A stretch of 64,000 nucleotides of DNA from Thermodesulfobacteriota bacterium (GTDB lineage Bacteria > Desulfobacterota > Binatia > Bin18). The stretch is from contig OZ219926.1 in the NCBI GenBank assembly GCA_964291405.2, positions 3,648,001 to 3,712,000 on the forward strand. Direction: 5' to 3'. Shown in pieces: positions 31,429 through 51,050 of the stretch. Each line of letters opens with the position of its first letter. Within the stretch, counting starts at the first letter, position 1. The translations under genes were made by a program, and so were the position numbers. Below the pieces are notes generated by a model. That model had not been told where the DNA came from. It searched no databases and saw nothing but the letters and a program-made list of their open reading frames with translations.

Positions 31429-32739
31429 TCACCCCTCCATCCCAACCCACCACACCAAATCACCAACCCTCGGCCTTCCGCCGTGACGCCAACTCAACGG
31501 CGGACGTTGCATGGTCCCGAGGGGACATACGCGGCTGATACCCAATGCGCCTAATGTATCGGCAAGGGTCGCCAGCCGTTCGGGAGCCGCTGCCACACCC
31601 ACAGCTTCGAGATAGGGTCGCCACGCCTCAAGAATCTTGCCGAGCTGGGCAATGTCCCGTAACGGCTTCACCCGAATCGTCCGATATAAAGGCGATTGGA
31701 CGAAGGTTGGGTCGACATCACACACAACGGTCCAGTCCGTTCCGTTTGGGCTCACGTGCAGGACAACGTCTTTCCCGGCCAACGCCCGCCATTCGGCTTC
31801 GTCTCTCACTTTTCGGATGGCGGTGCTGACTTCCGGTGGGACCGGACCGCGCGGCAGCTCGGTTTGCCAATGGGCCAGGCCCGTGGCGAGCAGAGCCGCG
31901 AACTCTTTTGGGGTGACGGCTCCGCCTTCCTCAACATAGATAAGCTGGGGAGACAGACAGCCCTGCTGGTCGTATAACGCCACGTCATAGGCCGCCTTGT
32001 GAGCGAGTTCTTCCGCATCAGCCAGACTCTCTGTGGTCACCAGACCGAAACTCACTTTGTGGCCGTAGCCGAGGAACTGACCGCGCGTTCGTTTCCGGAT
32101 TGCCGTGAGGCTCGCATCCGAGCCGGAGGCAACAACAATGTCCGCTCGTCCATACGCCAGGTCTTCAAGCTCCATGTTTCCCCCAGGCCAGGAAACGACA
32201 CTGAGACATGCGCCCAGGTTTGGGTCAATGTCCTGAATCGAACGGGCGAACAGGACGGGCAGGACGGGCTCCGCGGACGAGGTTTTGACCAGGGCGGCGG
32301 ATTTCACCAGCAGGGAGAAGATGACGCTGTCGAGCCCTGCTCCGGGTACATTGCCGGCCAGGACGTGCGTAATCAGCGGCGGCCCAGAGGCTCGCTTTTG
32401 TCCAGAGACAGATGGGATAAAGCGGTCGAGGACTTCAAGACGGCCCAACTCGTCAATGCAGAGCGCCTCTATCTCGTCCGCTCGATATTCCCGAAAAATA
32501 AGGGGCAGCACGTGTTGGATCATGGCTGCAGAGAGGCCGGTCGTTTCCGGGAGCCGGGCTTCGGCTTCCTGCCGTTCTGGGGAGTCGGGATCAAGCCAGC
32601 GTTGAACGGCCTGGCCTACGCAATTCAAGATATCTCGGGCTGTTCTGGGGACGAGGTGTTGGACGCGGTTGGCGAGCAGGGCATCCAGCCTGGCGCTCAG
32701 GTCGGTCGGGGAGGGTGACGGCATGCCTATACCCGTCAC
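31429..32739 (-). CDS. LuxC-like acyl-CoA reductase
   Basis: HVLAGNVP, YGHKVSF, YDQQGCLSPQ catalytic Cys, G.MQRPPLSWRHGG. Confidence 0.85.
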   Translation of the reverse strand: MTGIGMPSPSPTDLSARLDALLANRVQHLVPRTARDILNCVGQAVQRWLDPDSPERQEAEARLPETTGLSAAMIQHVLPLIFREYRADEIEALCIDELGRLEVLDRFIPSVSGQKRASGPPLITHVLAGNVPGAGLDSVIFSLLVKSAALVKTSSAEPVLPVLFARSIQDIDPNLGACLSVVSWPGGNMELEDLAYGRADIVVASGSDASLTAIRKRTRGQFLGYGHKVSFGLVTTESLADAEELAHKAAYDVALYDQQGCLSPQLIYVEEGGAVTPKEFAALLATGLAHWQTELPRGPVPPEVSTAIRKVRDEAEWRALAGKDVVLHVSPNGTDWTVVCDVDPTFVQSPLYRTIRVKPLRDIAQLGKILEAWRPYLEAVGVAAAPERLATLADTLGALGISRVCPLGTMQRPPLSWRHGGRPRVGDLVWWVGMEG

Positions 32740-33848
32740 TGGGCGGATAAAAACTCGTCCAGGACCAGCGCGCAGCCGCGTGCTTCCGAGCCTGGGGTGC
32801 GGCCGATAATCTCAAACCCGTCGCCCGTCAGATAGCCTACGTCATCGGTCTGAATCGCCATGACCGAGCCGCAGTTGGCCAGGTCAAAGTGACGCAGGAT
32901 GCCGTGCTCGCCCGGTGGCACTTCTTCCAAGGTTTCAGGATGGACGACCAGCGTGCGTGTCCAGGCCGGGCCGATTTTATACCGCCGCTCGTTGCTCTTC
33001 CGAAAACGGTTGTACAAGACGTGATCGTAAAACTGCGAGGCCATCTCGGTCATGCCGTATTCGTTCACGCAGTAATAGCCGGCGACCTTGAGGTATTTCC
33101 AGCACGACTGCAAATAGCCGTTGCGCGAGAGCGGACGGCCTTTGCCCTTATTGCCGCCCGTATCCATAATGCGGCTACTGGAAGGCAGCGCAAAGGTTTT
33201 CCGATTGGCGGCGCACCAGTCGAAAAAGGCGACCAGGGCCGAGGTAATCGCCAGAACGCAGACCGGCTCGCTCGTCTCCTGGGCATGGGTGACGGCCGCG
33301 GCAAAGGCTTCCAGATGCATGCCGTCCACATCAATAAAATACCGGCTGTCAGAGGTTCCCAGGTCACGCATCACCCATTCGGCCATCTGGGTCAGCGATG
33401 AGTGCGGTTGGGTCTCGGGATCGGGAATCAGACTCAAGACCCGCAGCGGACGCTTTTCAGGCAGTACGCACTGCGAGAAGTGAGCCAGCGCCGAAGCGTG
33501 GTATAACTGCAAATCGGGGACAAGGTGTCGGCCACGCTTTTCCTGTCCCCGCGTGGTGCCACTGGTCAAAAAAATTTTCTCTGGCGGACCGCAGGTCAGA
33601 TCAAGCTCTTTGAAGGCGACAGTGGGGACGGCTGGAATAGCTTTCCAGGTTCGGACGGTCTCTGGGGTCTTGTCTCTGGCCAGGCAGAACCGCTGATATG
33701 AAAGATTATGCTCAAATTGATGGGCGAAGACATCCAGGGCCAAGGCGTTAAAGTCTTTCCCCTCAGGCGTGGCGATGAAATCCAGGACGCGGGCGTCTAT
33801 GTGGTTTCGCGGGGCATTCACGGAAAAAAGAGCATAGGAAGCCGTCAA
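32736..33848 (-). CDS. LuxE-like acyl-protein synthetase (start uncertain)
   Basis: IPAVPTVAFK, FLTSGTT, MDTGGNKG, NEYGMTE, DLANCGS..IQTDD, GRTPGSEARGC. Confidence 0.85.
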   Translation of the reverse strand: MTASYALFSVNAPRNHIDARVLDFIATPEGKDFNALALDVFAHQFEHNLSYQRFCLARDKTPETVRTWKAIPAVPTVAFKELDLTCGPPEKIFLTSGTTRGQEKRGRHLVPDLQLYHASALAHFSQCVLPEKRPLRVLSLIPDPETQPHSSLTQMAEWVMRDLGTSDSRYFIDVDGMHLEAFAAAVTHAQETSEPVCVLAITSALVAFFDWCAANRKTFALPSSSRIMDTGGNKGKGRPLSRNGYLQSCWKYLKVAGYYCVNEYGMTEMASQFYDHVLYNRFRKSNERRYKIGPAWTRTLVVHPETLEEVPPGEHGILRHFDLANCGSVMAIQTDDVGYLTGDGFEIIGRTPGSEARGCALVLDEFLSAQ

Positions 33849-41392: not shown

Positions 41393-41445
41393 GCAAGATT
41401 TCCTTTCCTTTAAACCCGCGATCGCTCGGGATTCAGGTTATCACC

Positions 41446-42069
41446 CTACCAACGGGAGGGTTTCCGAATGTTTGTGCCGGGAATTAGGTTTGGCAACTGC
41501 GAGCGCTGTAGAGCATTCGGCCGTATATGTCTTGAGAAGTCCGCATGCACCATGAGCTGGCGCGACGGCCTTCCGGTTCCCGGGGTCACTAAGCCGACGC
41601 GCTTGCCGCAGTGCAATTTCACCAGACGCATCGCTTCGGCGATGTCGCTATCGTTCGTCACCACCACCGCGCAGTCATAGGCATCCAGCCAGCCATCATT
41701 GAGCAGATGCACAGCGAGATTGACATCCGAGCCCTTCTCCTCGGTTCGGATCACCTCCGCCGTGCGCCGGTTTCCCTCTGGCTGCGCGAGCGGCACACGG
41801 ACGGGATGGCTCAGGAAGTGTCCGAAATACACCTCAAACTGGGGCCGGTAGCGCCGCAGCGCGCGGAGATATACGTCCTGTCGCTGGGGCTTCGACGGGT
41901 TTCGGGCCGTACCCGAAACCCGTGCCGTGAAGTACTTGACCGCGAGTATCTGGTGGTGCGGCTGGAGTACCTTCTCGAACAGCGTGACCAGATCCAGCCA
42001 CTTCCATGGCGAGCCCTTGAGGGCTCCGTAGTAGAGATTGAATCCGTCTACATAGACGAATGTACGCAT
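41446..42069 (-). CDS. NYN domain (LabA/DUF88, PIN-like) nuclease
   Basis: VYVDGFNLYYG, YFTA, EEKGSDVNLA, VTNDSD. Confidence 0.9.
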   Translation of the reverse strand: MRTFVYVDGFNLYYGALKGSPWKWLDLVTLFEKVLQPHHQILAVKYFTARVSGTARNPSKPQRQDVYLRALRRYRPQFEVYFGHFLSHPVRVPLAQPEGNRRTAEVIRTEEKGSDVNLAVHLLNDGWLDAYDCAVVVTNDSDIAEAMRLVKLHCGKRVGLVTPGTGRPSRQLMVHADFSRHIRPNALQRSQLPNLIPGTNIRKPSRW

Positions 42070-42089
42070 TGATGCCCGTCGAATAATAA

Positions 42090-42147
42090 AGCAAGGGCCT
42101 CCGAAGAGGCCCCGCGCCCCGCGGTCGAAACCGCAAGGGGTATTGCT
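42090..42147 (-). ncRNA. Putative structured RNA upstream of the NYN gene
   Basis: Closing stem AGCAA/UUGCU enclosing two hairpins, each with a UUCG tetraloop on the minus strand. Confidence 0.55.
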
Positions 42148-42207
42148 AGCAGTCTAGTCACATCGACGACTAGGATCAAGTCGGCCTTATTCGACATGAA
42201 GGATGAT

Positions 42208-42344
42208 ATTCCCCTCTCCCTGGCCAGGAAGAGGGTGAGGGTCGCTCAGATGAATTCCCCCTCATTAATCCTCTCCCCTAAGGGGCGAGGAGAGAAGCCT
42301 TACCCGACATGTCCGTTTGTCGGATTACGCTCCGCTAATCCGAC
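42208..42344. repeat. REP-like palindromes
   Basis: ccctctccc..gaggg motifs and gtcggattacgctccgctaatccgac palindrome (42319-42344). Confidence 0.6.
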
Positions 42345-42349
42345 AAACT

Positions 42350-42451
42350 TACTAAAGATCAAGATAACTCGGTGGGAATGGCACCGGGTAGCGCTGATTT
42401 CATCTAAAAACCTGATCGCCATTCCCGCTCGGGTTCATCGCTTGGTTATCT
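42350..42451 (-). other. Degenerate integron attC-like site
   Basis: Minus strand: AGATAAC (contains gene stop)..gatGaacccgAgcgggaatggc..gccattcccaccgagttatc..TTTAGTA; arms pair with two unpaired bases; R' lacks the G of GTT. Confidence 0.6.
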
Positions 42452-43474
42452 GTTTTCCTTGACCACCCCTTGCTCGTTCATAAGGGAATGCAGTTCGGCG
42501 TTTTTTTCGCGCAAACTTGCTACAATTGTGCTGTAAGCTGCGTAGCGCGCGATCTCTTTTTTCGAGAGTTCGAATGCTCTTTTCATCAGTGTGATCCCAT
42601 TCGCTTCATCGTTTTGTTTGAAAGCCAGAAGAGAACGATTGAATGCAACAATCGCCTGCTCATGTGAGTTTACGTCTGCCCAAAACTCAGCTGCATCAAG
42701 CAACTTCTGAGATTGGGTTGTATCTCCATATAGTCCAAGTGCTAGCCCGTAGTTTGCCAACATGTGCGGCTCTGCACCGGAGTCGTAGATACCCTTAGAG
42801 AGCAGCTCGACTGCTTGCTCCGTAAGACCATTATGCAGAAAGACAAATGCAGTGTTGTTGATGTCACGACCAGTCGGGATAATTCGCCGGAGAGATCGAC
42901 GAACCCCGTGTCGAATGAAGAATAGAAGAATAAATTGAGCAATCAGCGCAATTGGAATGAGTGCGGCAATTACCGCATTTCGCGTTGGGGAGATTCTGAC
43001 AACAGAATTCAATGGAGCACGTTTGCCGGTTGACACGTCGCTCTTTATGCCGACAATCGGGTCTTTCCCGTCGGCAGTGTCGGTGAGGAGGGCAACTGTT
43101 GCAGTTTCATCGGGTGTAAAGACTGCAATCCGGACATCTAGTTTGTTGTCACCGATAGGCTGAATATCAATCTTGCCGGCAGGTCCTGACGACAGTGTTG
43201 CTCGTTTGTCATTGATTTTAACCTTGTTATCAAACTCGACGCCAATAATGACATTTGTCGCCGGTTTCTCACCAGTGTTTTTGACGCGAACATTAACGAA
43301 GGACATCGTGGTTTGGTCAGAGTCAAAGGTAACAGGCTTATCGATGTCGTAGATAAGTTTTTCGGCAAGAGGGGGTGGAGGCGACTCACGAGTCAGATAG
43401 TAGACTATTACACTTGCCACTACCGTGACGATGAGTGTCGCAATCGAGCCAAGGAATACGTCCCGCCATTTCAC
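42446..43474 (-). CDS. AT-richer membrane protein: TM, beta-rich extracytoplasmic domain, TM, TPR-like domain
   Basis: Two hydrophobic helices; INNTAF..LANYGLAL..AFNRS TPR-like repeats; codon usage unlike neighbours. Confidence 0.7.
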   Translation of the reverse strand: MKWRDVFLGSIATLIVTVVASVIVYYLTRESPPPPLAEKLIYDIDKPVTFDSDQTTMSFVNVRVKNTGEKPATNVIIGVEFDNKVKINDKRATLSSGPAGKIDIQPIGDNKLDVRIAVFTPDETATVALLTDTADGKDPIVGIKSDVSTGKRAPLNSVVRISPTRNAVIAALIPIALIAQFILLFFIRHGVRRSLRRIIPTGRDINNTAFVFLHNGLTEQAVELLSKGIYDSGAEPHMLANYGLALGLYGDTTQSQKLLDAAEFWADVNSHEQAIVAFNRSLLAFKQNDEANGITLMKRAFELSKKEIARYAAYSTIVASLREKNAELHSLMNEQGVVKENR

Positions 43475-47966: not shown

Positions 47967-48782
47967 ATGTGTCGTTTTGTTGTGTATCGCGGAAAGCCGG
48001 TCCCGCTCGCCGAGGTTATCAGTGCGCCTGCGCACTCCCTGATAGAGCAGAGTTACCAGCCTAAAGAGATGACCGCCGGAACGGTCAATGTGGATGGGTT
48101 TGGGGTCGGCTGGTATAACCGCGCGCTTGACCCCACGCCGTGTATCTACACCAATATCGTCCCGATCTGGAATGATCGCAATCTGCCCGGCTTGAGCCGT
48201 CATATTGTTTCGGATTGCATTGTCGCCAACGTCCGTAGCGCCACACCGGGTTTCGGACTCGATCAGAGCAACTGCCAGCCGTTTGCCTACGATCGTCTGT
48301 CGTTCATGCATAATGGCTTTATTGAAAAGTCCCGTGATGGCCTGCTGCGCAAAATACGCGAGGCCCTCCACGATGAGTACTATCGCCTTATTCGAGGCTC
48401 GACCGATTCTGAGCACATCTTTGCTCTTCTTCTGAACTTTTTGCACGGTCAGGAACTGACGCCACAGGCATATGTGACCGCTATTCGGCACACGGTTGCC
48501 CAGTTGCTGGACTGGACACGCGGTCAGGCGATTCATATGGCGCTGAATCTGGTGCTGTCCGACGGGGTGCATGTGGTCGCCCTCCGCTTTGCGAATACCT
48601 CGCCGGCGCCGTCGCTGTATTATTTGTGCAACGGTACGGATTTCCCCGACGCGGTGGTCATTGCGTCGGAAAGACTCTCTGCCGATCCGGCCTGGCAGGC
48701 TGTCCCGGAGAGTCATATTGTGACCTGCCGGAACGCCACGGATGTTGATCTTGTCGTCCTTGGCGGCCAGGAGACGGTATGA
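47967..48782 (+). CDS. egtC: Ntn amidohydrolase, ergothioneine biosynthesis protein EgtC
   Basis: N-terminal MCR, HSLIEQSYQP.EM..NVDGFGVGWY, ANVRSATPG, FMHNG, TDSE. Confidence 0.88.
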   Translation: MCRFVVYRGKPVPLAEVISAPAHSLIEQSYQPKEMTAGTVNVDGFGVGWYNRALDPTPCIYTNIVPIWNDRNLPGLSRHIVSDCIVANVRSATPGFGLDQSNCQPFAYDRLSFMHNGFIEKSRDGLLRKIREALHDEYYRLIRGSTDSEHIFALLLNFLHGQELTPQAYVTAIRHTVAQLLDWTRGQAIHMALNLVLSDGVHVVALRFANTSPAPSLYYLCNGTDFPDAVVIASERLSADPAWQAVPESHIVTCRNATDVDLVVLGGQETV

Positions 48783-50017
48783 TCGATATTGCGGACTTCC
48801 GGCAGCGGATGATCGAGGCGCGCGCGTACACGCAGTCGCTGTTCGCGGCGATCGAGCCGGAAGACTTCTGTCGACAAGTGCACGCCGAGTTCAGTCCGGT
48901 CGGCTGGCACCTTGGCCATATTGGGGTGACCGAGGGATTCTGGATTCTGCAACAGTGTCAGCACGCGGCATCGCTGTCGCCTGAGTACGATATGGTTTTC
49001 TCTCCGCTTGACAATCCGAAAGAGAATCGGGTCAATCTCCCCACAGCGCCTGAGATTTTTGCCTATCTGGATGAAGTTCGTGCGCGCGTGTTTGCCTTTC
49101 TGGAGCGGGGCGACTGGTCGGACACCCATCCCCTGCTGGGCGAAGGCCGCCTCCTGAACATGCTCTTCCAACACGAAGAACAACACACCGAGACCATCCT
49201 CCTGATTCTCAATCTGCTTGCAGCCCGGCGATTCGATGTAGGAGATGGGGGCTCGTTCTCTGCCTCCGCCGCGTCGCGCCGGAGCCCTCCTCAGCGTTCC
49301 GACCCAACGACCATGGTCCGGATTCCCACCGGAGCCTACAGCATGGGCAGCGATGACAGCGCGCGTACGCTGGACAATGAACGGCCTGCTCAGCAGGTCT
49401 GGCTTGAGGAATTCTGGATTGATCCCACACCAATCACAAACGCCGATTTCCTGGAGTTCATGGATGCTGGCGGATATCGGAACCCTGCCTGGTGGAGTCA
49501 GCAGGGATGGCGCTGGTGCGAGGAGCATCGTATTGCCCACCCCTTGTACTGGCGTCCTGGGAGTACTCAGGGGCACTGGCTGGAGATTGACCCGTTCGGG
49601 GTAGCGCCGTTGGATCCGGCCCAACCGGTGCGGTGCGTGAGTTGGTACGAGGCCGAGGCCTACGCCCGCTCGGTCGGGAAACGGCTGCCGACCGAGGCCG
49701 AATGGGAAAAGGCGGCTTGGTGGGAGGCTGAACAACAGACCGCGGCAGCACAATCAGACCCTCCGGAGTCCGGTCTCGGGCTGCTCGGCGGTGTCTGGGA
49801 GTGGACCCACACTTGGTTCCACCCTTATCCGGGTTTTCAGGCTTTTCCGTACGACGGCTATTCCGTTCCGTATTTTGATCAACACCACCGAGTCTTACGC
49901 GGTGGGTCGTGGGCAACGCGACGACATGTCCTTCGGCCAACGTTTCGGAACTGGTATCATCCCGGAATGCGGGCCGTCTTTGCCGGCTTGCGGTGTGCAA
50001 AGGACGCCGCGCCCTAG
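48779..50017 (+). CDS. egtB: Sulfoxide synthase EgtB (DinB + FGE-sulfatase domains)
   Basis: FSPVGWHLGH, QHEEQHTET iron ligands, DNERP, RLPTEAEWEKAA, GYS, LRGGSW, RNWY. Confidence 0.85.
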   Translation: MIDIADFRQRMIEARAYTQSLFAAIEPEDFCRQVHAEFSPVGWHLGHIGVTEGFWILQQCQHAASLSPEYDMVFSPLDNPKENRVNLPTAPEIFAYLDEVRARVFAFLERGDWSDTHPLLGEGRLLNMLFQHEEQHTETILLILNLLAARRFDVGDGGSFSASAASRRSPPQRSDPTTMVRIPTGAYSMGSDDSARTLDNERPAQQVWLEEFWIDPTPITNADFLEFMDAGGYRNPAWWSQQGWRWCEEHRIAHPLYWRPGSTQGHWLEIDPFGVAPLDPAQPVRCVSWYEAEAYARSVGKRLPTEAEWEKAAWWEAEQQTAAAQSDPPESGLGLLGGVWEWTHTWFHPYPGFQAFPYDGYSVPYFDQHHRVLRGGSWATRRHVLRPTFRNWYHPGMRAVFAGLRCAKDAAP

Positions 50018-50063
50018 CGCGGCGAGAGGCGGTGGATTGACCGAGTAAGGTAGGTTGTTTTGT

Positions 50064-51050
50064 ATGTCAACACGATTTCGAGAGACTGACCGTTTGCAAA
50101 TTTCTACGGTAGGCAAGGTACGTTCGCAATTGCGGACCGACGTTGCCTTTGGCTTGCAGCAAGACCAGAAAACCTTGCCGCCCAAGTATTTTTATGATGC
50201 CTACGGATCGCAACTGTTTGAGGATATCTGTCAGCAGCCGGAATACTACCTCACCCGGACCGAAGCGCAGATTCTACGGACGCACGCCGCGGATATCGTG
50301 CGACAGACGGCCGGCGCCTCACTGGTCGAGTTGGGAAGCGGCAGTTCGGTGAAAACCCGCCTTCTGTTCGATGAATATCAACGCCGGGATCACCTCCTGC
50401 ACTATGTGCCGATCGATATCAGCGCGTCGATGCTCGAAGAGACCGCGCACGGCCTGCTGGCTGACTACCCCACCATGTCGATTGAGGCCCTGGCGACCGA
50501 CTATCTGGCCGGACTCACCGCCCTGCCCAATACCCGGCCCCGTCTCGTCCTCTTTTTGGGCAGCAATCTGGGTAATTTCAGTCCGACGGAGCAGGCCGAA
50601 CTGTTTCAGCACCTGGCGGCCTACCTCCATCCCGGCGACCAGTTCTTATTGGGGCTCGACCTGCGGAAGTCTGTTGAGATTATAGAAGCCGCATATAATG
50701 ACGTGGCTGGAGTCACGGCCGACTTCAATCTCAATATCCTGCGTCATATCAACCGAGAGCTCCAGGCGGATTTTAATCTCGCGCAGTTCTCTCATCTGGC
50801 CTTTTATAATCGGGAACTGCATCAAATCGAAATGCACCTGAAGAGCGAGGTCGCCCAGGAAGTGACTATCACTGCCCTAGACCTGACCGTCTCGTTTCGA
50901 GTGGGTGAGACCATCCACACGGAGATATCCAGAAAATTCGATGTGCAAGAAGTCAAAGAACAATTGACTGGTCACGGCTTTCAATTCCAATCCCAATGGA
51001 CTGACCCCGACAACCTCTTTCTCCTGAGTCTCTTTCGCTATACGGGCTAA
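50064..51050 (+). CDS. egtD: Histidine N-alpha-trimethyltransferase EgtD
   Basis: LPPKYFYD..GSQLFE..PEYYLTRTE, ELGSG..KT, AYND..GVTA.FNLN, IHTEISRKF. Confidence 0.92.
   Translation: MSTRFRETDRLQISTVGKVRSQLRTDVAFGLQQDQKTLPPKYFYDAYGSQLFEDICQQPEYYLTRTEAQILRTHAADIVRQTAGASLVELGSGSSVKTRLLFDEYQRRDHLLHYVPIDISASMLEETAHGLLADYPTMSIEALATDYLAGLTALPNTRPRLVLFLGSNLGNFSPTEQAELFQHLAAYLHPGDQFLLGLDLRKSVEIIEAAYNDVAGVTADFNLNILRHINRELQADFNLAQFSHLAFYNRELHQIEMHLKSEVAQEVTITALDLTVSFRVGETIHTEISRKFDVQEVKEQLTGHGFQFQSQWTDPDNLFLLSLFRYTG

What the first reader, a model, noticed from the sequence alone, without database searches (positions are those of the whole stretch)
42069..42175. Three-way-junction RNA with two UUCG tetraloops directly upstream of an NYN nuclease
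Seen on the minus strand: AGCAA UA CCCCUUGCGGU-UUCG-ACCGCGGGG CGCG GGGCCUC-UUCG-GAGGCCC UUGCU, ending 20 nt before the ATG, plus an upstream hairpin ctagtc..gactag (42154-42173). Both UUCG loops read in the NYN sense direction, and there is no clear SD and no protein antitoxin adjacent. Known: NYN domains are PIN-fold RNases; type III TA systems pair an RNase with an upstream structured RNA. Inference: an RNA-antitoxin or autoregulated NYN module, possibly anti-phage.
Basis: partly seen in the sequence, partly recalled or inferred. Interest (0 to 1): 0.7.

Follow-up and report, generated by a model that had tools for sequence, protein, structure and literature searches.

The report
Hairpin RNA partner of NYN nuclease
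A roughly 60-base RNA made of two hairpins, with its own promoter and terminator, travels together with a NYN-family RNA-cutting enzyme through many bacterial phyla, plasmids and phages, and most likely holds that enzyme in check like the RNA antidote of a toxin-antitoxin pair.

Summary
The two UUCG hairpins are real (window 42138-42117 and 42115-42091, minus strand) and strongly conserved. The proposed three-way junction and the extra upstream hairpin are not supported. The element reads as a small gene: a conserved -35/-10 pair, a 63-nt RNA (42144-42082) and an intrinsic terminator formed by hairpin 2, ending 12 nt before the start of a 207-aa NYN protein (PADLOC HEC-09, E 1e-42). The same cassette lies in 80 of 80 related loci from at least eight differently named bacterial groups. 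The RNA core is 89% identical to the window copy, against 53% at third codon positions. A covariance model finds the same RNA beside distant NYN genes in three gene orders (tandem, divergent, convergent), each with its own promoter, so it is a separate gene and not only a leader. On an E. coli plasmid, four tandem copies of the hairpin-1 unit plus a terminator precede NYN, as in type III toxin-antitoxin loci. NYN is often broken or deleted while the RNA stays intact, and four phage loci carry the RNA without NYN. Best reading, at about 55%: an RNA antitoxin-like partner of a NYN RNase. Nothing has been tested at the bench. No Rfam family matches, and no paper on this RNA was found.

The parts
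42174..42179 (-). -35 hexamer TTGATC of the RNA's promoter
   Evidence: TTGA is nearly invariant (90% or more) across 79 leaders while the following 17-nt spacer is free. It is also kept in the orphan copy of the same genome. The generic promoter scan did not list it because it matches only 8 of 12 consensus positions.
42151..42156 (-). -10 hexamer TAGACT
   Evidence: TA at its first two positions is nearly invariant and lies 17 nt after the -35. Conservation of the RNA starts 7-9 nt downstream of it.
42082..42144 (-). Predicted small RNA, about 63 nt: a short 5' tail ending in CCCC, hairpin 1, a one-base linker, hairpin 2 and a U-rich tail
   Evidence: MFE -32.7 kcal/mol, z -4.8. Covariance model R1 scores it at 86 bits. 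89% mean identity to 77 related loci. The 5' end is inferred from the promoter and the 3' end from the terminator; neither has been mapped.
42117..42138 (-). Hairpin 1 (9 pairs, UUCG loop)
   Evidence: 94.7% of cells paired, and 5 of 9 pairs show changes on both sides in the close family; 9 of 9 do so in the broad alignment. This is the unit that is tandemly repeated on an E. coli plasmid.
42091..42115 (-). Hairpin 2 (10 pairs with a bulged U, UUCG loop), the stem of an intrinsic terminator
   Evidence: Listed as terminator-like. 98.9% of cells paired. 8 of 10 pairs show changes on both sides in the broad alignment. Pair probabilities are 0.96-1.0 except the G-U pair at 0.5.
42082..42090 (-). 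U-rich tract after hairpin 2 (UUUAUUAUU here; a run of five or six U in most relatives)
42070..42081 (-). 12-nt spacer with a weak SD-like ACGGG, between terminator and start codon
   Evidence: This stretch is 35% conserved. An SD-like tract occurs in 46 of 72 relatives.
41446..42069 (-). NYN-domain protein, 207 aa (PADLOC candidate family HEC-09)
   Evidence: Pfam NYN E 2.4e-7. PADLOC HEC-09 E 1.1e-42 over the full length. AlphaFold2 pLDDT 92. Nearest solved folds are 2qip and the MARF1 NYN domains. Invariant acidic residues are D8, E110, E111, D115, D132, D140 and D142.

Best explanation
The locus is a two-gene module: a small structured RNA and a NYN-fold ribonuclease. A promoter (42179-42151) drives a 63-nt RNA of two stable hairpins. 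The second hairpin is an intrinsic terminator, so most transcripts should stop 12 nt before the NYN start codon, and only read-through transcripts would encode the enzyme. Those transcripts carry a roughly -17 kcal/mol hairpin abutting the ribosome-binding region. The abundant short RNA is inferred to bind NYN and keep it inactive, in cis and in trans, as in type III toxin-antitoxin systems and the AbiF/RCd22 pair. Loss of the RNA supply, for example when a phage shuts off host transcription or when the cassette or plasmid is lost, would free the nuclease. Shown by computation: the anatomy, the conservation, the covariation, the independent RNA gene in three gene orders, the tandem array in a relative, the frequent loss of NYN with the RNA retained, and RNA-only copies in phages. 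Inferred: transcription start and stop, RNA-protein binding, toxicity of NYN, and any role in phage defence or plasmid maintenance.
For: (1) The RNA is its own gene. Model R1 finds the same RNA with its own -35/-10 in three arrangements (gene order checked). Tandem upstream: the sponge-type family, a Leptospira plasmid at E 3.7e-8, and L180 at 3.6e-16. Divergent: L179 at 4.7e-10, L025, L026 and a Streptomyces plasmid. Convergent downstream: a Paenarthrobacter plasmid at 2.2e-13 and a Mycobacterium prophage at 1.5e-12. (2) The sequence is under stronger constraint than the protein. The RNA core is 89% identical, against 86% at codon positions 1+2, 53% at position 3 and 34-35% in the adjacent spacers. 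(3) The structure is supported. In the close family, 96.9% of cells are paired, 6 of 19 pairs change on both sides, 0 of 500 shuffles reach this, and slid controls give 37-58%. In the broad alignment the figures are 96.7%, 17 of 19 pairs, 79 cells, and 38-53% for slid controls. G-U pairs occur in 47 and 36 of 79 sequences at two positions, which fits an RNA of this strand. (4) Type III-like layout. A strict-criteria terminator lies within 75 nt of the start in 78 of 80 close loci and 9 of 16 distant loci, against 20 of 1500 long ORFs of the same genome. An E. coli 4.6-kb plasmid has four tandem hairpin-1 units (period 33), then a terminator, then NYN. (5) NYN is expendable and the RNA is kept. 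In the genus, 8 RNA copies score 83-89 bits, but only 3 have an evidently intact NYN. Eight of 11 multi-copy genomes hold RNA copies without an intact NYN. The orphan in the window's own genome keeps promoter hexamers, RNA and terminator while the spacer and the NYN remnant have diverged. (6) Four distinct phage loci carry the full RNA (66-79 bits) directly after phage genes, without NYN. This recalls phage pseudo-ToxI mimics (PMC3475682; listing and start of abstract seen). (7) The family sits on 454 plasmid records, many of them 3.4-5.7 kb. (8) NYN has an intact acidic active site and a confident NYN fold.
Against: No experiment bears on binding, toxicity or defence. The one HEC-09 representative tested was cloned with about 150 bp upstream plus a T5/lac promoter. 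It gave no defence against the phages tried and was not among the constructs noted as toxic. The window RNA is a single unit, not a repeat array, and there is no sign of processing. An RNA with two GC-rich UUCG hairpins should be long-lived, whereas classical antitoxins are labile. RNA copies persist in genomes with no intact NYN of this type (G041, G002, G006). That could mean an NYN-independent function, or only that these losses are recent, since the RNA is a roughly six-fold smaller mutational target. Covariation within the close family is modest because the sequence barely varies, and the broad alignment was fitted to the model. The phage copies could simply be captured terminators. No RNA-seq data were available.
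Confidence: 0.55

Rival explanations
1. Purely cis-acting leader. The promoter-terminator pair is an attenuator or insulator that keeps expression of a harmful nuclease very low, perhaps with NYN cleaving or binding its own leader for autoregulation. The short RNA itself would have no function in trans.
For: In the window and in most relatives the terminator ends 10-13 nt before the start codon. The hairpin abuts the ribosome-binding region. Many RNases regulate their own leaders (established knowledge).
Against: The same RNA occurs divergent from NYN or convergent with it, with its own promoter, where it cannot be a 5' leader. Orphan copies keep promoter and RNA after NYN is lost. No competing antiterminator fold exists, and hairpin 2 and the core of hairpin 1 are near probability 1. 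Loops, linker and the 5' CCCC are conserved well beyond what a terminator needs. A cis role probably coexists with a trans role in the tandem arrangement.
Confidence: 0.15
2. The RNA is a required cofactor, scaffold, activator or specificity subunit of NYN, forming a ribonucleoprotein nuclease, and not an inhibitor.
For: Tight genetic linkage in any gene order, and co-variation of RNA type with NYN subfamily: the own-genome paralog has its own version of the RNA. Strong sequence constraint at the helix junction.
Against: The RNA is almost fully base-paired, with only a short 5' tail, so it makes a poor guide. RNA-only copies are common in genomes and in phages, while intact NYN without the RNA was not seen in the close family. 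That is the asymmetry expected of antidote and poison, not of enzyme and cofactor. The tandem array followed by a terminator is the type III antitoxin layout.
Confidence: 0.15
3. The element acts as DNA or is generic: a recombination or mobility site of the cassette, or just an efficient terminator that hitch-hikes with NYN.
For: The cassette sits at different chromosomal sites within one genus, and empty sites exist. No mobility gene lies nearby. The phage copies lie exactly where a terminator would lie.
Against: The conserved -35/-10 pair at fixed spacing and the U-tract are transcription signals. G-U pairs are strand-specific. Hairpin 1 is not needed for termination, yet it is as conserved as hairpin 2 and is the unit repeated on the E. 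coli plasmid. Nothing is conserved past the NYN stop codon across phyla.
Confidence: 0.05

Closest known systems
Type III toxin-antitoxin systems (ToxIN, CptIN, TenpIN)
   Same: The order is promoter, small structured RNA, Rho-independent terminator, then an endoribonuclease gene. A relative on an E. coli plasmid has tandem 33-nt repeats before the terminator. The family is carried on plasmids and prophages. Phage-borne RNA-only copies recall pseudo-ToxI (PMC3475682, listing and start of abstract).
   Different: The toxin fold is NYN/PIN-like, not ToxN-like. The window RNA is a single unit ending in the terminator hairpin, not a repeat array. The RNA gene can also be divergent or convergent, which I do not recall being described for type III loci. 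Binding and processing are untested.
AbiF (Abi_2) with the ncRNA RCd22 of Clostridioides difficile (PMC12373285; abstract and outline read)
   Same: A non-repeat structured ncRNA encoded just upstream of a toxic RNA-targeting protein. It is reported to lower expression in cis and to neutralise the toxin in trans by direct binding.
   Different: A different protein family (Abi_2/HEPN-like against NYN) and an unrelated RNA motif. No Rfam family, abiF motif included, matched here.
HEC-09, a PADLOC candidate defence gene (Payne et al. preprint 10.1101/2024.01.29.577857; passages read)
   Same: The window protein matches the HEC-09 profile end to end (E 1.1e-42). It shares the MARF1-like NYN fold and conserved aspartates.
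   Different: HEC-09 is described as a single gene embedded in Hma systems. No RNA partner appears in the passages retrieved, and the term 'non-coding' has 0 occurrences in the main text. The window copy lies among ordinary metabolic genes, not inside a defence system.
NYN domains of MARF1 (5yaa, 6fdl) and VPA0982 (2qip)
   Same: Best structural matches: E 1.9e-8 to 2.2e-5, TM-score normalised to the target 0.68-0.73.
   Different: Only 12-19% identity. The window protein is about 50 residues longer, with a long beta-ribbon (residues 84-112) and a C-terminal extension. No RNA partner gene is known to me for these proteins (recalled).
Terminator-based transcription attenuators and riboswitch leaders
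   Same: An intrinsic terminator lies between a promoter and the start codon.
   Different: No alternative antiterminator pairing exists, and both hairpins are capped by extra-stable tetraloops. The RNA also occurs outside the leader position.

Membership tests
Pfam NYN (PF01936) | Profile match above the curated gathering score | tested here: met
   31.8 bits against a cut-off of 24.2, residues 2-171.
Pfam NYN (PF01936) | PIN-like fold with conserved acidic metal-binding residues | tested here: met
   AlphaFold2 pLDDT 92. Top PDB matches are 2qip and the MARF1 NYN domains. D8, D115, D140 and D142 are invariant in 43 sequences. Catalysis itself cannot be tested here.
PADLOC HEC-09 | Full-length match to profile PDLC04163 | tested here: met
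   E 1.1e-42, profile positions 3-202 of 203.
PADLOC HEC-09 | Embedded within an Hma or other defence system (the context in which the candidate was found) | tested here: not met
   Neighbours within about 10 kb are an amidase, a BT1 transporter, an SDR, GST, DUF72, LysE and similar genes. Only a weak PDC-M71B match (6.7e-8) was found, on the 342-aa neighbour.
[quoted passage not shown]
   The NYN nuclease fold and active-site residues are present. Neither activity nor toxicity was measured.
Type III toxin-antitoxin | The antitoxin is a non-coding RNA encoded upstream of the toxin and separated from it by a Rho-independent terminator | tested here: met
   terminator-like hairpin in 78 of 80 loci. 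The RNA has not been detected experimentally.
Type III toxin-antitoxin | The antitoxin gene is an array of tandem direct repeats | tested here: not met
   The window has one unit. A homologous locus on an E. coli plasmid has four units of period 33.
Type III toxin-antitoxin | The RNA binds and inhibits the toxin protein, and the toxin processes the RNA precursor | not testable with these tools
   Needs co-expression, co-purification or EMSA, and cleavage mapping.
Type III toxin-antitoxin | Toxin of the ToxN/AbiQ-like fold (the three described families) | tested here: not met
   The fold is NYN/PIN-like. So this is not a member of ToxIN, CptIN or TenpIN, although it may work like them.
Any Rfam 15 RNA family | Covariance-model match | tested here: not met
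   No match in 42070-42200 at E up to 10. No match on any of 11 related leaders at E up to 0.1.
Riboswitch or attenuator leader | Mutually exclusive terminator and antiterminator folds | tested here: not met
   The ensemble is dominated by the two hairpins. Hairpin 2 and the inner five pairs of hairpin 1 have pair probabilities of 0.85-1.0, apart from one G-U pair at 0.5.

The most novel reading that the evidence does not exclude
NYN (HEC-09) genes and this two-hairpin RNA form a previously unrecognised, very widespread class of RNA-protein toxin-antitoxin or abortive-infection modules. The class has a PIN-like toxin and a compact RNA antidote whose gene can sit in any orientation. It moves between at least eight named bacterial groups that include marine sponge symbionts, rides small plasmids of enterobacteria, and is countered by phages that have captured the RNA alone and express it behind late genes.
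Probability: 0.4. Interest if true: 0.85.

Novelty: new variant of a known kind. Interest (0 to 1): 0.75.

Why it matters
The result gives a concrete, testable partner to HEC-09, a candidate defence gene that so far has no phenotype. It could also explain why that gene looked inert when cloned together with its upstream region. If the RNA is an antitoxin, it would add a toxin fold (NYN/PIN-like) and a new RNA family to the RNA-antitoxin systems, of which three type III families and AbiF/RCd22 are described. The family is common: 454 plasmid records, including small plasmids of Klebsiella and E. coli, plus prophages. The near-identical cassette in many phyla whose record titles point to sponge symbionts is a clean marker of cross-phylum gene flow in that habitat. 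The RNA-only copies in phages offer a natural counter-defence hypothesis to test. The RNA is also a well-defined new candidate for Rfam.

Tried and rejected
Rfam scans of the window region and of 11 related loci found no family for the RNA.

The PDB sequence search with NYN gave no hit at E up to 10, and NCBIfam gave none.

RNA-seq: no RNA holder was listed for the stretch, so no reads were laid.

Three-way junction: rejected, because the closing stem is paired in 70% of cells and lies at or before the predicted transcription start.

Upstream hairpin 42154-42173: rejected as the non-conserved promoter spacer.

Leader peptide: the 49-aa ORF 42048-42197 (-) spans the variable spacer and is not conserved.

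Mimicry of a host RNA: short-word BLAST of the element against the whole genome found only the two copies plus chance 13-20-nt matches.

Antiterminator fold: none was found.

Conserved element after the NYN stop codon across phyla: none.

Defence-island context in the window: not found.

The generic promoter scan did not list the promoter. The promoter call rests on conservation instead.

Literature searches with the terms HEC-09; NYN domain + sponge + symbiont; NYN + type III toxin-antitoxin + antitoxin RNA; NYN domain + RNA motif + upstream + terminator; and NYN domain + toxin-antitoxin + noncoding RNA gave no paper describing an RNA partner of NYN/HEC-09.

L226 from the second viral pattern scan is a chance match inside coding sequence.

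Leaders of the Klebsiella, Pseudomonas, Thiothrix and Xanthomonas plasmid homologs show a terminator hairpin before the start but did not reach significance with model R1. Their homology to the window RNA is therefore open.

Full report
OBSERVATION. Hairpin 1 spans 42138-42117 and hairpin 2 spans 42115-42091, both capped by UUCG. The UUGCU ends 20 nt before the ATG at 42069. The ORF 41446-42069 is a NYN-domain protein (Pfam PF01936, 31.8 bits against a cut-off of 24.2). The 63-nt stretch 42144-42082 folds at -32.7 kcal/mol, with z -4.8 and 0 of 500 shuffles as stable. Hairpin 2 and the inner five pairs of hairpin 1 are near probability 1, and no competing fold appears. Two parts of the description fail. 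The AGCAA/UUGCU stem that would close a three-way junction is paired in 70.2% of cells across relatives, against 94.7% and 99.6% for the hairpins in the same structure. The 'upstream hairpin' 42154-42173 is a non-conserved promoter spacer.

ANATOMY. Aligning 79 distinct leaders shows four conserved blocks separated by free sequence (window, its second copy and 77 loci; 3 exact duplicates dropped). The first is a -35 hexamer whose TTGA is nearly invariant. Then, after a 17-nt unconstrained spacer, comes a -10 hexamer starting with TA. About 7 nt later the RNA begins. It ends in hairpin 2 followed by a run of U, which is a canonical intrinsic terminator (also flagged). The start codon follows 10-13 nt later. 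In the window these parts are TTGATC 42179-42174, TAGACT 42156-42151, the RNA 42144-42082, and a 12-nt spacer with only a weak SD. With two extra G-C pairs across a bulged U, hairpin 2 starts one base after hairpin 1. The RNA is therefore essentially two helices joined end to end, with a short 5' tail ending in CCCC.

SPREAD. The NYN protein has 181 confirmed relatives in the species-representative genome collection. The best 80 are 65-97% identical. Their record titles name Binatia, Alpha- and Gammaproteobacteria, Longimicrobiales/Gemmatimonadetes, Dehalococcoidia, Nitrospirales, Entotheonella, Bryobacterales/Acidobacteriota and Spirochaetia. Several names (Entotheonella, Palauibacter, Porisulfidus, 'Spongia_Bin9') are, from my recollection, sponge symbionts; at least one title is groundwater. 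All 80 carry the element directly upstream, and 78 of 80 have a strict-criteria terminator within 75 nt of the start. The corresponding figure for long ORFs of the window's own genome is 20 of 1500. Conservation stops at the -35 on one side and at the stop codon on the other. Relative to the window copy, the RNA core is 89% identical. Codon positions 1+2 are 86% identical and position 3 is 53% (56 loci with an uninterrupted 207-codon frame). The two spacers are 34-35% identical. Within the window's genus the cassette lies between the BT1 transporter and amidase genes in some genomes and elsewhere in others, and empty BT1-amidase sites exist. The window's neighbours are ordinary metabolic genes.

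STRUCTURE SUPPORT. On the close family, 96.9% of 1501 cells are paired and 6 of 19 pairs (17 cells) change on both sides. No shuffle out of 500 reaches this, and slid controls give 37-58%. G-U pairs at two positions, in 47 and 36 of 79 sequences, fit an RNA of this strand. A covariance model (R1) then found much more diverged members. On 26 sequences aligned to the model, 96.7% of 484 cells are paired and 17 of 19 pairs (79 cells) change on both sides. Slid controls give 38-53%. That alignment is fitted to the model and so leans towards the structure.

THE RNA IS ITS OWN GENE. R1 hits lie beside distant NYN genes (30-48% identical) in three orders, each preceded by a good -35/-10 pair (orders verified by translation). 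Tandem upstream: a Leptospira plasmid at 3.7e-8, L180 at 3.6e-16, the window genome's own NYN paralog at 1.4e-4 and its ortholog at 5.4e-6, and E. coli plasmids. Divergent: L179 at 4.7e-10, L025, L026 and a Streptomyces plasmid. Convergent, just past the NYN stop: a Paenarthrobacter plasmid at 2.2e-13 and a Mycobacterium prophage at 1.5e-12. On a 4.6-kb E. coli plasmid the hairpin-1 unit with its CCCC-ending 5' tail occurs four times in tandem (period 33; Tandem Repeats Finder reports 2.6 copies at 96% and 3.3 copies at period 29). A terminator, GGAG and the NYN start follow. This plasmid type is present in 10 of 5426 complete E. coli genomes. Other homologs (Acetobacter, Phaeobacter, Granulicella, Klebsiella, Pseudomonas, Thiothrix, Xanthomonas plasmids, L176, L178, L035) show the same layout by eye: promoter, hairpin(s), then a terminator just before the start. 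Their sequences are too far from the window RNA for R1 to reach significance.

ASYMMETRIC LOSS. The window's genome has a second RNA copy (86 bits) outside the window, 140 nt after an antiporter-like gene. It keeps the promoter hexamers and the terminator, but its spacer and the roughly 30-nt NYN remnant have diverged. In the genus, 8 RNA copies in 7 of 28 genomes score 83-89 bits. NYN is evidently intact next to 3 of them. In 2 the start codon is ACG, and one of these is also cut to residues 2-112. One is truncated at residue 150, one is deleted right after the start codon, and one has decayed. Among the 80 loci, 5 have premature stops at 21-139 codons and 1 is a deletion-fusion, all with near-consensus RNA. 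All 50 genomes searched behind those loci hold the RNA. Eleven hold two or more copies, and in 8 of those 11 at least one copy lacks an intact NYN. Exact-pattern scans of IMG/VR found 7 contigs (4 distinct loci) with the full RNA at 66-79 bits. None has NYN downstream, and none shows an evident promoter of the conserved kind. One copy lies directly after an endolysin-like gene and one directly after a head scaffolding/assembly gene next to the portal gene. The protein scan of the same collection found only one 41% relative. That scan sees close relatives only.

PROTEIN. The protein matches the PADLOC candidate HEC-09 end to end (1.1e-42). The AlphaFold2 model is confident (pLDDT 92) and is closest to 2qip and the MARF1 NYN domains. 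D8, E110, E111, D115, D132, D140 and D142 are invariant in 43 sequences. The preprint that defined HEC-09 reports a MARF1-like NYN fold and no defence against the phages tested. Its constructs carried about 150 bp of upstream sequence plus a T5/lac promoter. No RNA appears in the passages I retrieved, and 'non-coding' occurs 0 times in the main text.

MECHANISM. Most likely (about 0.55): a strong promoter makes an abundant, very stable short RNA. The terminator, and the hairpin abutting the ribosome-binding site, keep NYN synthesis low. The RNA binds NYN and silences it in cis and in trans. When RNA supply fails, NYN is freed. This works like type III toxin-antitoxin systems and like AbiF/RCd22 (PMC12373285, abstract and outline). 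The anatomy and the comparative pattern are shown here; binding, toxicity and the trigger are inferred. Rivals are a purely cis attenuator (0.15; contradicted by the divergent and convergent genes and by the orphans), an RNA cofactor or scaffold (0.15; disfavoured by the RNA-only copies and the array layout), and a DNA-level or generic terminator element (0.05; contradicted by the promoter, the G-U pairs and the conservation of hairpin 1).

KNOWN OR NEW. The protein family is known as a candidate. The RNA matches no Rfam 15 family, and five literature searches found no description of it. It is not a member of ToxIN, CptIN or TenpIN, because the toxin fold differs and the window has no repeat array. 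It is best filed as a new variant of the RNA-antitoxin kind.

LIMITS. There are no expression data. The bioRxiv supplement naming the tested HEC-09 representative was not readable. The counts of gene orders come from a small hand-picked set of distant loci, not a survey. The sponge-symbiont reading of the record titles rests on my recollection.

Noticed in passing
window 42302-42353: A REP-like palindrome (a 13-nt perfect inverted repeat around an 8-nt loop) in the spacer upstream of the cassette. At least 15 further partial copies are scattered over the same genome.
   Followed up: partly
window 42446-43474 (-): A 342-aa ORF with no Pfam family and a weak match to the PADLOC candidate PDC-M71B (6.7e-8) lies between the BT1 gene and the cassette. 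At the same site in a related genome (G002) it is absent and BT1 abuts the cassette.
   Followed up: partly
own genome outside the window, locus L032 1419-2130 (G000:C3 about 1,005,000): A second NYN gene, 34% identical, with its own promoter and a diverged two-hairpin RNA (R1 E 1.4e-4) ending in a terminator 10 nt before its start. It lies next to a tRNA gene (L032 1186-1258). The genome therefore holds two different RNA-NYN pairs plus one orphan RNA.
   Followed up: partly
window 42185-42195 and 42078-42086: A 9-nt complement between sequence just upstream of the -35 and the stretch running from the end of the U-tract into the spacer. It dominates the 151-nt MFE fold. The upstream arm lies before the predicted transcription start and probably has no RNA role.
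   Followed up: no
relatives L038 and L037 (cassette ends within the genus); window about 42207-42222 and 41395-41415: Within the genus, shared sequence runs from about 45 nt before the -35 to about 65 nt past the stop codon. A GGGAGAGGG(G)AAT-like direct repeat sits near both ends in some genomes. It may be a recombination or target-site feature.
   Followed up: no
loci L215 (324-1148) and L182 (371-1069): The annotated NYN coding sequences in these plasmid records start inside the RNA region. The real starts are probably at L215 501 and at the ATG just before residues MRTII in L182. Several Klebsiella and Xanthomonas plasmid records label the NYN gene '6-hydroxy-3-succinoylpyridine 3-monooxygenase HspA' or '6-hydroxy-3-succinoylpyridine hydroxylase', probably a mislabel.
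   Followed up: no
window 48779-51047 (+): An adjacent gene pair, FGE-sulfatase+DinB_2 and histidine-specific methyltransferase (Methyltransf_33). From my recollection it looks like an ergothioneine EgtB/EgtD pair.
   Followed up: no
window 31429-33845 (-): LuxC-like acyl-CoA reductase and LuxE-like acyl-protein synthetase genes lie side by side.
   Followed up: no
locus L170 (E. coli/Serratia 3461-bp plasmid): This tiny plasmid carries little besides NYN, a VbhA-family antitoxin gene and RNAI. Its NYN leader is longer (3-4 hairpins) and only weakly matches R1 at 0.0056.
   Followed up: partly
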